DNA of 64,000 nucleotides from Eledone cirrhosa (Eukaryota): contig CAXHJY010000940.1 of assembly GCA_964016885.1 (NCBI GenBank), positions 1-64,000 on the forward strand, read 5' to 3'. This document shows positions 1,457-64,000 of this stretch, one piece after another; within the stretch, counting starts at the first letter, position 1; each line of letters starts with the position of its first letter. The position numbers were made by a program, and so were the translations under genes. A model generated the notes under the pieces. That model made no database searches. It saw nothing but the letters and a program-made list of their open reading frames with translations, and was not told the DNA's origin.

Positions 1457-2102
<646 letters not shown>

Positions 2103-2225
2103 GAATATAGACATAGAATATTCGAAAATATTCTGTATGTTTATAATAAACATTTTGAAGACCTAATCGCTATAGAATAGAATACGTCACGTATTACAAT
2201 TAGATTCTCGATAAAAGCAAGGGAA

Positions 2226-3198
2226 GTAATCTACGCGTTTCATTCTTATTAGAAATCTTCAGGACTACATATCCAGTGCTTTTATCGAGAATGACACAGC
2301 TAGAGACTTATAGAATACTTAGCTGTGTACAGGAACTGGTTTGAAAGAGCGGTTGCCGGTCCGGCAGAAATTAGAAATTGGAATAAATGCTCTGAAATAG
2401 CGATATATATGTGAATATAGACATAGAATATTCGAAAATATTCTGTATGTTTATAATAAACATTTTGAAGACCTAATCGCTATAGAATAGAATACGTCAC
2501 GTATTACAATTAGATTCTCGATAAAAGCAAGGGAAGTAATCTACGCGTTTCATTCTTATTAGAAATCTTCAGGACTACATATCCAGTGCTTTTATCGAGA
2601 ATGACACAGCTAGAGACTTATAGAATACTTAGCTGTGTACCGGAACTGGTTTGAAAGAGCGGTTGCCGGTCCGGCAGAAATTAGAAATTGGAATAAATGC
2701 TCTGAAATAGCGATATATATGTGAATATAGACATAGAATATTCGAAAATATTCTGTATGTTTATAATAAACATTTTGAAGACCTAATCGCTATAGAATAG
2801 AATACGTCACGTATTACAATTAGATTCTCGATAAAAGCAAGGGAAGTAATCTACGCGTTTCATTCTTATTAGAAATCTTCAGGACTACATATCCAGTGCT
2901 TTTATCGAGAATGACACAGCTAGAGACTTATAGAATACTTAGCTGTGTACAGGAACTGGTTTGAAAGAGCGGTTGCCGGTCCGGCAGAAATTAGAAATTG
3001 GAATAAATGCTCTGAAATAGCGATATATATGTGAATATAGACATAGAATATTCGAAAATATTCTGTATGTTTATAATAAACATTTTGAAGACCTAATCGC
3101 TATAGAATAGAATACGTCACGTATTACAATTAGATTCTCGATAAAAGCAAGGGAAGTAATCTACGCGTTTCATTCTTATTAGAAATCTTCAGGACTAC
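2226..3198 (-). ncRNA. Four type I hammerhead ribozymes (2226-2268, 2536-2578, 2846-2888, 3156-3198)
   Basis: Reverse complement of GTAGTC-CTGAAGA-T-TTCT-AATA-AGAA-T-GAAA-CGCG-TA-GATTAC in each left-arm unit. Confidence 0.85.
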
Positions 3199-3441
3199 AT
3201 ATCCAGTGCTTTTATCGAGAATGACACAGCTAGAGACTTATAGAATACTTAGCTGTGTACAGGAACTGGTTTGAAAGAGCGGTTGCCGGTCCGGCAGAAA
3301 TTAGAAATTGGAATAAATGCTCTGAAATAGCGATATATATGTGAATATAGACATAGAATATTCGAAAATATTCTGTATGTTTATAATAAACATATTCTAT
3401 AAGTCTCTAGCTGTGTCATTCTCGATAAAAGCACTGGATAT

Positions 3442-5344
3442 GTAGTCCTGAAGATTTCTAATAAGAATGAAACGCGTAGATTACTTCCCTTGCTTTTATC
3501 GAGAATCTAATTGTAATACGTGACGTATTCTATTCTATAGCGATTAGGTCTTCAAAATGTTTATTATAAACATACAGAATATTTTCGAATATTCTATGTC
3601 TATATTCACATATATATCGCTATTTCAGAGCATTTATTCCAATTTCTAATTTCTGCCGGACCGGCAACCGCTCTTTCAAACCAGTTCCTGTACACAGCTA
3701 AGTATTCTATAAGTCTCTAGCTGTGTCATTCTCGATAAAAGCACTGGATATGTAGTCCTGAAGATTTCTAATAAGAATGAAACGCGTAGATTACTTCCCT
3801 TGCTTTTATCGAGAATCTAATTGTAATACGTGACGTATTCTATTCTATAGCGATTAGGTCTTCAAAATGTTTATTATAAACATACAGAATATTTTCGAAT
3901 ATTCTATGTCTATATTCACATATATATCGCTATTTCAGAGCATTTATTCCAATTTCTAATTTCTGCCGGACCGGCAACCGCTCTTTCAAACCAGTTCCTG
4001 TACACAGCTAAGTATTCTATAAGTCTCTAGCTGTGTCATTCTCGATAAAAGCACTGGATATGTAGTCCTGAAGATTTCTAATAAGAATGAAACGCGTAGA
4101 TTACTTCCCTTGCTTTTATCGAGAATCTAATTGTAATACGTGACGTATTCTATTCTATAGCGATTAGGTCTTCAAAATGTTTATTATAAACATACAGAAT
4201 ATTTTCGAATATTCTATGTCTATATTCACATATATATCGCTATTTCAGAGCATTTATTCCAATTTCTAATTTCTGCCGGACCGGCAACCGCTCTTTCAAA
4301 CCAGTTCCTGTACACAGCTAAGTATTCTATAAGTCTCTAGCTGTGTCATTCTCGATAAAAGCACTGGATATGTAGTCCTGAAGATTTCTAATAAGAATGA
4401 AACGCGTAGATTACTTCCCTTGCTTTTATCGAGAATCTAATTGTAATACGTGACGTATTCTATTCTATAGCGATTAGGTCTTCAAAATGTTTATTATAAA
4501 CATACAGAATATTTTCGAATATTCTATGTCTATATTCACATATATATCGCTATTTCAGAGCATTTATTCCAATTTCTAATTTCTGCCGGACCGGCAACCG
4601 CTCTTTCAAACCAGTTCCTGTACACAGCTAAGTATTCTATAAGTCTCTAGCTGTGTCATTCTCGATAAAAGCACTGGATATGTAGTCCTGAAGATTTCTA
4701 ATAAGAATGAAACGCGTAGATTACTTCCCTTGCTTTTATCGAGAATCTAATTGTAATACGTGACGTATTCTATTCTATAGCGATTAGGTCTTCAAAATGT
4801 TTATTATAAACATACAGAATATTTTCGAATATTCTATGTCTATATTCACATATATATCGCTATTTCAGAGCATTTATTCCAATTTCTAATTTCTGCCGGA
4901 CCGGCAACCGCTCTTTCAAACCAGTTCCTGTACACAGCTAAGTATTCTATAAGTCTCTAGCTGTGTCATTCTCGATAAAAGCACTGGATATGTAGTCCTG
5001 AAGATTTCTAATAAGAATGAAACGCGTAGATTACTTCCCTTGCTTTTATCGAGAATCTAATTGTAATACGTGACGTATTCTATTCTATAGCGATTAGGTC
5101 TTCAAAATGTTTATTATAAACATACAGAATATTTTCGAATATTCTATGTCTATATTCACATATATATCGCTATTTCAGAGCATTTATTCCAATTTCTAAT
5201 TTCTGCCGGACCGGCAACCGCTCTTTCAAACCAGTTCCTGTACACAGCTAAGTATTCTATAAGTCTCTAGCTGTGTCATTCTCGATAAAAGCACTGGATA
5301 TGTAGTCCTGAAGATTTCTAATAAGAATGAAACGCGTAGATTAC
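3442..5344 (+). ncRNA. Seven type I hammerhead ribozymes (3442-3484 and every +310 bp to 5302-5344)
   Basis: Stem I GTAGTC/GATTAC, core CTGAAGA (3448-3454), stem II TTCT/AGAA, GAAA (3469-3472), palindromic stem III ACGCGT, predicted cleavage after GUA (A3478). Stem I is extended by a perfect 16-bp helix (3418-3433/3491-3506). Confidence 0.85.
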
Positions 5345-5506
5345 TTCCCTTGCTTTTATCGAGAATCTAATTGTAATACGTGACGTATTCTATTCTATAG
5401 CGATTAGGTCTTCAAAATGTTTATTATAAACATACAGAATATTTTCGAATATTCTATGTCTATATTCACATATATATCGCTATTTCAGAGCATTTATTCC
5501 AATATG

Positions 5507-46098: not shown

Positions 46099-46252
46099 TT
46101 CATTATTTCTGAAGACGGCATATATATGAGTTGGTATGTATATTTGATTTTGATAGTTTGTATAATTTTGTATAATTTTGTACATAGATCTGTTAAATAT
46201 ACATGCTAATTCTAACACATATATATCCCAGAAACGATCGTTAAATAATGAA
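46099..46252 (+). ncRNA. Type I hammerhead with ~115-nt stem II
   Basis: Perfect 10-bp stem I TTCATTATTT/AAATAATGAA, CTGAAGA (46109-46115), long paired stem II, GAAA-CGATCG-TT (46231-46242). Confidence 0.75.
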
Positions 46253-46519: not shown

Positions 46520-48118
46520 CGCGCACGTCCATTCCGACAAAACTGGCAATCTATATCAAGTGGAGCGCAGTACTTACCATCAACTACTACATAATGCTGT
46601 AACTAAGGATTACCGTAAAACTAATCGGTGCGTCATCAATGAAATCAACGATGCTGGGTTTAAAATCCCCTCTGATCTCAACATCCTGGACCGAACCGAA
46701 CCTCTGGATGCAACAAGGAACATTGTCGTTTTATCCAATTCGACATCAACAATTACTACTCCCCCATCACTTTACCACTTCTCCTTAGAGCTATCAATTT
46801 CGCTAAAACACTCACAGTGGTTAAGGATTTCGAAGTTGATGTCATCCTCAATGCCCGTAAGTCGGTGATTAATTTCGACGACTCTACTTGGATAAAAAAA
46901 TCCAATAGTACCCCATTCGACGTGAGTATGGGGGCCAGCGATTCTGCGGAGGTTACTGATCTTATCGGCCTTTTCCTTCTTTTCTCTATCAAGGACGAAT
47001 TCCCCAACGCGGGCGGTGGTTTGTACCGTGATGATGGTATGTTGACCATGACTAAGTGCGGACCTCGTGCTTGCGACAGGTTCAGAAAAGAACTCACAAC
47101 CTTCTTTAAAGGCTTCAACCTCTCTATACAGGTTGAGGCCAATCTCTCGGTCGTTAATTACCTCGACGTTACCCTCAATTTATCGAATGGCTTGCATTAC
47201 TCGTATAGAAAGCCGAATGATACGCTTAATTACATAAGTAAGCATTCTAACCATCCTGCCAGCATAACCAAGAACCTGGAAAGAAACGTTTCTTTGAGGC
47301 TTTCCCGTCTATCTACTAACGAGCATATTTTCAACGACCATTCCATTTATTACAATGAAGCTCTTGCTCGGAGTGGATTTGTCGATAAGGTAGCATATAC
47401 AGAGTACGCAAATAGACCTAGAAGAAATAGATCCCGTCGCATTTGTTGGTATAACCCACCATATAATATGGAGGTGGCCACACCATTAGCTAAGATCTTT
47501 CTATCCCTTATTACGAAGCATTTTCCCCCTACACATAAATATAGTAACATTTTTAATAGAAATACTATTAAAATTCCTTACTCTACGATTCCTAACCTTG
47601 CACATAACATCACAGCTTCAAATTTAGCTAAACTACCTAGCCATAGGAATACGTGCAACCATGTAGTTAGTACTAACTGTAAATGTAGGAATCGGGTTGA
47701 TTGCCCCCTATCCGGGAAAGGCCTCTCTAGTAACATTGTCTACAAATGTAAGGTTGAAACACCCACGTCCGGTAGGGCCTACATAGGGTTAACCGCCAAT
47801 AGATTCAAGCAGCGTCTTTACATGCATACCCATTCTTTTCGTTACCCTCTAAGAAGGAATATGACGTGACTTTCAGCTTATATCTGGAGTCTAAAAGACA
47901 ACCACACCCAATATAAGTTACACTGGGAGATCCTAGCTAGGGCTAGATCGTATAACGGAAATAAAAGACCATGTGACCTCTGCGCCGCTGAGGCCCTGGA
48001 AATACTCTACGCCACAGACCCCATCTTAAACAAAAAATCTGGGGCAATTTCGGCTTGTAAACATAAATTGCACAAAACTTTCCTGTATTACAGCCCCACA
48101 TTATACCCTAACGGCTAG
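46520..48118 (+). pseudogene. Penelope-like element ORF remnant: reverse transcriptase + C-terminal GIY-YIG endonuclease
   Basis: SDKTGNLY; FIQFDINNYYSPI (frame opens at about 46712); FDVSMGASDSAEV; GLYRDDG; YLDVTL; CKCRNRVDC linker; IVY..AYIGLT..FKQRLYMH. After the in-frame TGA at 47867-47869 the frame continues LSAYIWSLK..CDLCAAE..LNKKS..ACKH to TAG at 48118. 5'-truncated, with an internal deletion/frameshift near 46710. Confidence 0.92.
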
Positions 48119-63246: not shown

Positions 63247-63364
63247 AAATGATGAATTAACTGTTGTAGAACTTCTACCAAACTCGTCCCATGGACTGAA
63301 TGTTCTACTACTACGGATATAACACTCCAGTGTTCTACTATTATATCAATATATATATATATAT

Positions 63365-63715
63365 ATGAATGTATGTATAGCATATTTTATAATATACTGT
63401 ATGTTTAATTAAAAGTATTTTGAAGACCATTCGCTATGAATTTTAAAGTAGTGACTATGTCACTTACTTATCCTCGGCAAAAACAAAGGGGAGTAATCGA
63501 CAGTACTGTTTCTTGCTCGTTAGGAGTTATCAAAACTATTCATCCCTGCGCTTCCGCCGAGAATTATAGAAGCTGGATTCTTATAGAATTCCAGTAATGT
63601 TTAAGAGCTGATTAAACAGAACGGTTGCTGGTCCAGCACAAATTAGGTATTAGTATTGGTGCTCTGAAATAGCGATGTATACATGAATGTATGTATGTAT
63701 AGTATATTTGATAAT
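63365..63715 (-). mobile_element. Diverged retrozyme-like monomer (~318 bp + terminal direct repeat) homologous to the 310-bp unit
   Basis: Shares, in order, TTTTGAAGACC, TCGCTAT, GTAATC, CTTATAGAAT, CGGTTGC and GCTCTGAAATAGCGAT. Hammerhead-like motif at 63493-63539 (-). The start (63365) is repeated at 63683. Confidence 0.75.
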
Positions 63716-64000
63716 TGCAAAGGTCAAATGTAGATATTCATAATTCCTTTATTCATAATAAGGAATCATGAATGCCACAGAAATATGTATTACGGTTGAT
63801 TATGAAAAAAGGAATTATGAATATCTTATGTGGCCTTCGTAATTATCAATACATATATATATATGGTTTGGCAAAGGTTTTTTTTTTTAATATGAAATCG
63901 TGTGTTGAAACAGACATTGTTATATTTGGGGAGGGTCATGTTGTTATAATATTGCCAGAAAAATACAGTAAAATACAAACATATATATTCTCTTCATTAC

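What the first reader, a model, noticed from the sequence alone, without database searches (positions are those of the whole stretch)
63365..63715. Distant homolog of the retrozyme unit with compensatory base changes
Seen: a collinear relative about 58 kb away in which helices are kept while the sequence changes: CTCGAT/ATCGAG becomes CTCGGC/GCCGAG (63473-78/63556-61), TGCCGG/CCGGCA becomes TGCTGG/CCAGCA (63626-38), and the stem III palindrome ACGCGT becomes ACAGTACTGT with a GUC site. A terminal direct repeat gives a ~318-bp unit. Inference: an old, structurally constrained and mobile family rather than a local satellite. This copy's stem II has 3 unpaired nt and may be dead.
Basis: partly seen in the sequence, partly recalled or inferred. 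Interest (0 to 1): 0.82.

Follow-up and report, generated by a model that had tools for sequence, protein, structure and literature searches.

The report
Retrozyme lineage with swapped ribozyme core
This is a decayed copy of a widespread family of small mobile elements whose self-cutting RNA motif carries a swapped catalytic base pair, and whose insertion footprints suggest they were likely pasted in by Penelope-type retrotransposons copying RNA circles.

Summary
The homology is real. The 351-bp stretch (sense on the minus strand) is 1.1 units of a 318-bp relative of the 310-bp hammerhead array at 2.1-5.5 kb. It belongs to a dispersed older family (B), about 7% diverged from its column majority.

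This copy has lesions in stems I and II and is probably dead.

All families end at two fixed sites about 30 nt apart, mostly in (TA)n. Two-armed insertions are head-to-head with one arm at each site (19 of 19 in A; 10 of 11 classifiable in B/C), which matches the Penelope 'tail' and inversion signature. Most A arrays carry one haplotype in every unit of both arms, as a monomer template predicts.

Retrozymes, natural U3-A8 cores and the Penelope link are published. These footprints on retrozymes were not found in the papers read. Cleavage, RNA circles and the partner element remain unshown.

The parts
63365..63715 (-). Family-B retrozyme copy, one 318-bp unit plus 33 nt; single-armed, 3' end at start site 1, 5'-truncated at 63715
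63473..63561 (-). Type I hammerhead with its extended stem I
63527..63533 (-). Core UUGAUAA: U3 (63533) and A8 (63528) in place of C3-G8
   Evidence: sequence; 37 of 40 B copies have U3-A8
63513..63526 (-). Stem II and loop; damaged here (C.C mismatch at 63524); commonest family form C-CGCU-AACG-AGCG-A
63499..63512 (-). GAAA, stem III and GUC triplet; predicted cut between 63499 and 63498
   Evidence: sequence; alignment A2
63493..63498 (-). Inner stem I, 3' strand (GAUUAC)
63534..63539 (-). Inner stem I, 5' strand; two private changes (core-adjacent C-G to U.G; distal G-C to A.C)
63649..63682 (-). Stretch between the family's two 3' end sites (the Penelope-like 'tail'), internal in this copy
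63349..63366 (.). (TA)n tract at the 3' junction (likely target)
   Evidence: sequence
2093..3396 (-). Family-A array, left arm, 4.2 units, 3' end at site 1 in (TA)n
3393..5503 (+). Family-A array, right arm, 6.8 units, 3' end at site 2 in (TA)n; joined head-to-head to the left arm with a 4-nt overlap

Best explanation
The stretch is a decayed 1.1-unit copy of an older non-LTR retrozyme family whose type I hammerhead has a U3-A8 core pair, and which was likely spread by a Penelope-like element's enzyme copying a predicted circular RNA into (TA)n tracts. Shown: homology to the young array; dispersal; four related subfamily groups (A, B, C, D) with covarying stems and core pair; two fixed 3' end sites; head-to-head two-armed insertions with one arm at each site; array-wide haplotypes in A; lesions in this copy. 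Inferred: a multi-unit transcript self-cleaved after GUC (alone or as a dimer through the near-palindromic stem III) and the monomer was ligated to a circle. A Penelope-type endonuclease/reverse transcriptase would cut both strands of a (TA)n tract, prime one cDNA at each of the two start sites, run a variable number of rounds, and the two cDNAs would join through 0-4 nt of overlap. This copy records one arm that started at site 1, passed the cleavage site once and stopped 33 nt past its start. It has since decayed at 17 of 314 columns and probably no longer cleaves.
For: Core: U3-A8 in 37 of 40 B, 22 of 24 C1 and 4 of 5 C2 copies; C3-G8 in 2 of 2 A and 27 of 29 D copies. With positions 3, 7 and 8 left free, a B/C-type pattern gave 124 matches; of the 100 listed, 94 are U3-A8 and none C3-G8 (counted by eye; the pattern excludes A and D by design). 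Decay of C3-G8 copies would not give this. Named structure on 62 natural copies: 90.3% of cells paired, 19 of 33 pairs with a two-sided change, 0 of 500 shuffles as high, 44-54% paired when slid. A against B column majorities: 7 of 7 two-sided changes keep the pair, 2.2 expected, permutation p 6e-5 (one of the 7 depends on the alignment). Tree without the core columns puts D inside B (99/99) and needs 2 changes of the core pair. 3' ends at the two sites: 39 of 48 B and 23 of 29 C loci. Two-armed insertions with one arm at each site: 19 of 19 loci among 25 A loci, 10 of 11 classifiable of 21 in B/C, 12 of 13 classifiable in D by eye. Penelope-like elements show an adjacent inverted 5'-truncated copy, a 30-40-bp tail at one end and (TA)n bias (PMC8557442, passages), and the tail is the gap between two reverse-transcription starts, with both target strands cut and extended (PMC11167929, main text parts 1-2). 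Locus-specific variants sit in every unit of both arms in L109, L110, L112, L113, L116, L119, L130. Natural U3-A8 hammerheads are known and active in vitro (PMC3088659, passage). A young element of this genome with intact 775-aa RT/GIY-YIG-like frames has a U3-A8 minimal hammerhead in its terminal repeat.
Against: No cleavage and no RNA of any family was observed. No autonomous partner was found: the family profile matched no terminal repeat in 12, 38 and 30 loci of RT or GIY-YIG elements, apart from retrozyme copies that had inserted nearby. The single-switch tree (A with D) is not rejected (p-AU 0.056). In L114 both arms change haplotype after two units, which fits a shared linear template better than one circle. 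B, C and D copies are mostly 1-1.5 units long, not tandem arrays. The C.A mismatch at 10.1-11.1 is not a standard pair, and two intact B copies fold the core into an inactive rod. Rfam finds no hammerhead at gathering score in the window and none in two B loci even at E 5; A and D reach only 18.5 bits against 52. Pair counts count sequences, not events. The published in-vitro work saw no difference in start site between strands and found non-homologous priming (PMC11167929).
Confidence: 0.8

Rival explanations
1. Family B was a poor or non-cleaving passenger: it moved because it kept the signals that the Penelope enzyme reads, from linear transcripts, and the hammerhead fold was kept only as a binding structure.
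For: Hammerhead core mutants did not reduce insertion by a Penelope protein in vitro (PMC11167929). B copies are short. The stem II base is a C.A mismatch (26 of 36). The core folds into a rod in L071 and L055. Eight of nine Xenopus retrozyme dimers did not cleave in vitro (10.64898/2026.07.22.740005).
Against: The 3-8 pair changes on both sides at once, probably twice. The column majorities keep U4, G5, A6, A9, GAAA, A15.1-U16.1 and a non-G base at 17 in all groups. A few B loci hold about two units (L015, L022).
Confidence: 0.2
2. The arrays were copied from linear multi-unit transcripts of already homogeneous source arrays, not from monomer circles.
For: L114: both arms read two units of one haplotype and then switch to another. 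Homogeneous source arrays would give homogeneous offspring.
Against: Many different haplotypes are each fixed across all units, which needs a single-unit bottleneck at some step. Unit-specific changes are not shared between arms in window, L112, L113, L118 or L120. Circles are the main form of retrozyme RNA in mussel (PMC7229834).
Confidence: 0.25
3. The mobiliser is a LINE doing ordinary twin priming, not a Penelope-like element.
For: Twin priming by LINEs also gives 5' inversions with microhomology (recalled). No Penelope partner was found by homology.
Against: The inverted arm here ends at a second fixed site about 30 nt from the first, and either arm may be the longer. There is no poly(A) end. 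A sampled Penelope-like family of this genome also shows two 3' ends in (TA)n.
Confidence: 0.1
4. A satellite or foldback DNA whose paired changes arise at DNA level (hairpin template switching, CpG decay), with no RNA function.
For: CpG sites diverge 17% against 6%.
Against: The 3-8 pair is a tertiary contact, not a DNA hairpin pair. Copies are dispersed with strand-specific fixed 3' ends and variable 5' ends.
Confidence: 0.03

Closest known systems
Metazoan non-LTR retrozymes of coral, mussel and axolotl (Cervera and de la Pena 2020, PMC7229834)
   Same: 150-450-bp non-coding repeat, GC under 50%, one type I hammerhead per unit, several families per genome; family A has the U.U mismatch at the base of helix II described for axolotl HHR_Amex2.
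   Different: U3-A8 core with a C.A mismatch in B and C. Head-to-head two-armed insertions with two fixed ends are not described in parts 2-4 read ('inverted' occurs 0 times in the main text; its supplement could not be read). Cleavage and circles are shown there, not here.
Minimal hammerheads of Penelope-like elements, including the U3-A8 variant of Schistosoma Cercyon (Cervera and de la Pena 2014, PMC4209133)
   Same: U3-A8 covariation in an animal mobile element (about 1,300 hits there); palindromic or near-palindromic helix III.
   Different: Here the ribozyme is full-sized (6-bp inner stem I, internal loop, long outer stem) in a non-coding unit, and the pair is traced across subfamilies.
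Endonuclease-positive Penelope-like elements (PMC8557442; PMC3846280; PMC11167929)
   Same: Adjacent inverted 5'-truncated copy, tail of about 30 nt at one end, (TA)n targets, 3' ends downstream of the hammerhead.
   Different: No RT/endonuclease frame; no homology found to sampled terminal repeats; one start site per arm in nearly every case, where the in-vitro study saw no strand difference.
Vertebrate non-LTR retrozymes as Penelope derivatives (bioRxiv 10.64898/2026.07.22.740005)
   Same: Proposes Penelope dependence; monomers, dimers and multimers coexist.
   Different: Its evidence is co-occurrence and terminal-repeat homology, and it discusses tandem growth by local amplification and unequal crossover. 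The arrays here look born in one insertion. It sampled 35 species, no mollusc.

Membership tests
Non-LTR retrozyme | Type I hammerhead topology (stems I-III around the core, NUH cut site) | tested here: met
   Family level; 12 of 60 B/C copies keep core and all three stems. This copy fails stems I and II.
Non-LTR retrozyme | Canonical core C3 U G A N G8 A | tested here: not met
   U3-A8 in 37 of 40 B copies; a published active covariant (PMC3088659), so this makes it a variant
Non-LTR retrozyme | Unit of 150-450 bp, GC under 50%, too short to encode a reverse transcriptase | tested here: met
   318 bp, GC 0.35
Non-LTR retrozyme | Tandem copies | tested here: inconclusive
   A up to 27 units per arm; B mostly 1-1.5 units, about 2 in L015 and L022; this copy 1.1
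Non-LTR retrozyme | Self-cleavage of the RNA | not testable with these tools
   needs in-vitro transcription
Non-LTR retrozyme | Accumulation as circular RNA | not testable with these tools
   only indirect: array-wide haplotypes in family A
Non-LTR retrozyme | Target-site duplication when present | not tested
   ends lie in (TA)n, where duplications cannot be read
Non-autonomous Penelope-like element | Adjacent inverted 5'-truncated copy (head-to-head) | tested here: met
   19 of 25 A loci, 21 of 77 B/C loci; not in this copy
Non-autonomous Penelope-like element | Tail of about 30-40 bp at one end | tested here: met
   two 3' sites about 26-35 nt apart, one per arm
Non-autonomous Penelope-like element | Insertion bias for microsatellites | tested here: met
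   dinucleotide tract directly after 27 of 39 site-ended B and 12 of 23 C loci, 0 of 15 ended elsewhere
Non-autonomous Penelope-like element | Homology to the terminal repeat of an autonomous element | tested here: inconclusive
   none in 80 sampled loci, a small part of the 10,596-74,490 first-look candidates

The most novel reading that the evidence does not exclude
This lineage is a genomic record of how retrozymes move: a Penelope enzyme primes one cDNA from each cut strand at a different, fixed start site on one RNA circle and rolls round it, so a whole head-to-head array is born in one event. Along the way the ribozyme flipped its catalytic 3-8 pair twice (C-G, U-A, back to C-G), each time together with the mismatch at the base of stem II (U.U with C-G; C.A or A.A with U-A), a natural case of coupled change in an active site. 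Searches that demand C3-G8 would miss such families.
Probability: 0.5. Interest if true: 0.75.

Novelty: new variant of a known kind. Interest (0 to 1): 0.55.

Why it matters
How animal retrozymes are inserted is still open; the papers read name Penelope-like elements on co-occurrence and homology. The fixed two-site ends, one per arm, give a direct footprint and two exact positions to test in the existing in-vitro Penelope assay. The same data bear on how the Penelope tail and inversion arise. The four subfamily groups give a natural series for core covariation, and show that descriptor and Rfam scans miss whole hammerhead families. The flagged copy itself is a fossil; its value is as a pointer to the family.

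Tried and rejected
Rfam: no match at gathering score in the window; at E 5 in four loci only microsatellite-driven miRNA hits and sub-threshold Hammerhead_HH9 in A and D. A DNA search of the own genome with the A unit returned nothing, because common words are skipped; patterns were used instead. Sequencing runs: no RNA holder listed; this says nothing on expression. Horizontal spread of A: six laid runs under other organism labels hold the A unit as one contig with little or no B; their three haplotypes all occur in this genome, so trace carry-over is the likelier reading; not proven. Partner search: no homology to the 713-aa family, the 775-aa family or 30 GIY-YIG loci. Pfam did not name either frame; their Penelope-like label rests on recalled motifs, the terminal repeats with hammerheads, and GIY-YIG hits over the cut-off at two places shared. 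A resemblance between the repeat at 46109/59764 and the site-1 region was not picked up by the profile at E 5 and was dropped. An antisense hammerhead was considered by eye and dropped: no conserved core. RNAalifold on decayed B copies recovers only stem I, so a named structure was counted instead. No second arm lies beside this copy. No covariance model was built and R-scape is not on hand. Earlier findings of the scan: none. Paper searches for octopus or cephalopod with hammerhead, for U3-A8 and for retrozyme with inversion/tail showed no report of this family; the library lacks most subscription papers, and one supplement could not be read and one only in part.

Full report
Observation. The stretch 63365-63715 aligns collinearly with the 310-bp array at 2093-5503: 70% by blastn, E about 1e-29, score 143 against a shuffle maximum of 35. 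The repeat at 63365 and 63683 gives a 318-bp period. The ribozyme reads on the minus strand; the 99-nt hairpin folds at z -3.8 there and -2.6 on the plus strand.

The family. The window is G000:C967:1-64000 of a 3.0-Gb genome; the taxon was not tested. A search with the copy gave 3892 first-look candidates; the 40 scored include 87-92% matches on many contigs. I call this family B. A more distant copy led to group C (1530 candidates, 40 scored, 80-91%) and a chance neighbour to group D (2004 candidates, 40 scored, 93-96%). These candidate sets may overlap and are not copy numbers. The array's family A has 1361 exact copies of one 43-nt core and 13,969 matches to a looser C3-G8 pattern, of which the 100 listed are all A. 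Mean divergence from the column majority is 6.8% in B (40 copies), 10.5% in C1 (24), 7.9% in C2 (5) and 3.4% in D (29); A units are 99-100% alike within arrays. The samples are the best hits to my queries, not random draws. One laid run under another organism label (X18) holds both an abundant A-like variant and B/C-like pieces about 80-85% alike, so the lineage is not confined to this assembly's label.

What covaries. The stronger signal is elsewhere. The core reads UUGAUAA: U3-A8 in 37 of 40 B, 22 of 24 C1, 4 of 5 C2; C3-G8 in both A rows and 27 of 29 D. In one search, 94 of 100 listed B/C-type matches are U3-A8 and none C3-G8, 23 of 26. Stem II runs UUCU/AGAA in A, CGCU/AGCG in B, CACU/AGUG in C. 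On 62 copies (62 of 71 held at that point; nine left out for indels, truncation or near-duplication) the named structure pairs 90.3% of cells, with two-sided changes at 19 of 33 pairs; no shuffle of 500 reaches this, and slid structures pair 44-54%. That control ignores kinship, so I also compared column majorities: between A and B all 7 two-sided changes keep the pair, against 2.2 expected (p 6e-5; one depends on the stem III alignment); all two-sided changes in the other five comparisons also keep it. Outside the ribozyme, a hairpin near site 1 changes A-U to U-A between A and B. A tree of 47 of 100 rows without the core columns nests D in B (99/99) and needs two changes of the 3-8 pair; the one-change tree is 13.6 log units worse but not rejected (p-AU 0.056). 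The base of stem II is U.U in A and D and mostly C.A in B and C.

This copy. It differs from the B majority at 17 of 314 columns, 3 at CpG. It keeps the core and stem III but fails the pairing test in stems I and II; 12 of 60 B/C copies pass all tests. Its hairpin folds at -29.6 kcal/mol against -41.5 and -43.0 for two intact B copies. It is probably inactive (inference).

How the family moved. Read in ribozyme sense, copies end at one of two sites: after UUCA(U/C) (site 1) or about 26-35 nt further on (site 2). This holds for 39 of 48 B and 23 of 29 C loci, about 12% being expected from the window sizes; a dinucleotide tract follows in 39 of these 62 and in 0 of the 15 others. 5' ends vary. 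Of 25 A loci (the window, the first-listed arrays on C1, one on C2), 19 are two-armed and head-to-head, and in all 19 one arm ends at site 1 and the other at site 2; six are single-armed, one cut by an assembly gap (L111 holds the same event twice). In B/C, 21 of 77 loci are two-armed; of the 11 with both ends classed, 10 are site 1 plus site 2. In D, 12 of 13 by eye; the exception shares one flank on both sides and looks like a later duplication. Penelope-like elements often carry an adjacent inverted truncated copy and a 30-40-bp tail at one end, and favour microsatellites (PMC8557442, passages; PMC3846280, passages). In vitro a Penelope protein cuts and extends both strands and starts at two internal sites whose gap is the tail (PMC11167929, parts 1-2 of 4). 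In A, locus-specific variants occur in every unit of both arms in at least seven loci, and changes in single units are not shared between arms. That is what repeated copying of one monomer gives. L114 goes against it: both arms switch haplotype after two units. The genome has abundant Penelope-like frames, many intact (713 and 775 aa), and the 775-aa family has a U3-A8 minimal hammerhead and two 3' ends in (TA)n. None of 80 sampled loci shares terminal sequence with the retrozyme, so the partner is unknown.

Comparison with what is known. It works like, and by most testable features is, a metazoan non-LTR retrozyme (PMC7229834, parts 2-4 of 6 and term search). It fails the literal core consensus, but U3-A8 is a published natural and active covariant (PMC3088659, passages) and occurs in Schistosoma Penelope hammerheads (PMC4209133, passages). 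Penelope dependence has been proposed (PMC7229834; PMC7761336, passages; bioRxiv 10.64898/2026.07.22.740005, parts 1-3 of 5). PMC7151607 and PMC6962438 were seen as passages only; the latter lists 235 hammerhead hits in a squid. In seven searches I found no description of this family, of a U3-A8 full-size retrozyme, or of tail and inversion footprints on retrozymes. The supplement of PMC7229834 could not be read and may list further invertebrate examples.

Verdict. The copy is a fossil of a real family. The family is a new variant of a known kind. The interest lies in the core-pair switches and in footprints that make the mobilisation model directly testable. Cleavage, circles and the partner are inferred. 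Interest 0.55.

Noticed in passing
window 2093-5503 and L107-L130: Young family-A arrays are head-to-head, one arm ending at each of two fixed sites, with one haplotype per array; 13,969 core matches genome-wide.
   Followed up: yes
L114 (G000:C1:136718800-136726800): Both arms of one array switch haplotype after the same two units from the 3' end; unexplained under a one-circle template.
   Followed up: partly
window 46676-47866 (+): Truncated Penelope-like RT/endonuclease frame (label from recalled motifs); 74,490 first-look candidates, many intact 713-aa frames; ends in (TA)n.
   Followed up: partly
L173-L180 (for example L173:5316-5355): Young element with near-identical 775-aa frames whose terminal repeat holds a minimal hammerhead with U3-A8 core and palindromic stem III, and two 3' ends about 60 nt apart.
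   Followed up: partly
window 31259(+), 35258(+), 36097(-), 36426(-), 46109(+), 49449(-), 59764(+): Further CUGANGA...GAAA motifs that look like minimal or long-stem-II hammerheads of other repeats; not homologous to this family by profile search.
   Followed up: no
L173:6258-6361 (-): A full-size C3-G8 type I hammerhead at the centre of a long near-perfect inverted repeat; possibly another family (profile E 0.02).
   Followed up: no
window 63694-63863: Imperfect inverted repeat (75%) that overlaps the copy's 5' junction and ends in a TA tract.
   Followed up: partly
L064:639-1877: A family-A array inserted into the TA tract at the 3' end of a two-armed family-B copy.
   Followed up: partly
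runs X4, X6, X9, X15, X19, X20 laid on L064:1018-1860: Runs under six other organism labels hold the A unit as a single contig (depth 5-410) with little or no B; likely trace carry-over, unproven.
   Followed up: partly
run X18 laid on L064:1018-1860: Another organism label with a diverged A-like variant at summed depth up to 1e6 and B/C-like pieces.
   Followed up: partly
L241 from contig position about 64000: Short-period tandem repeat (about 24 bp) begins just beyond the window's right end.
   Followed up: no
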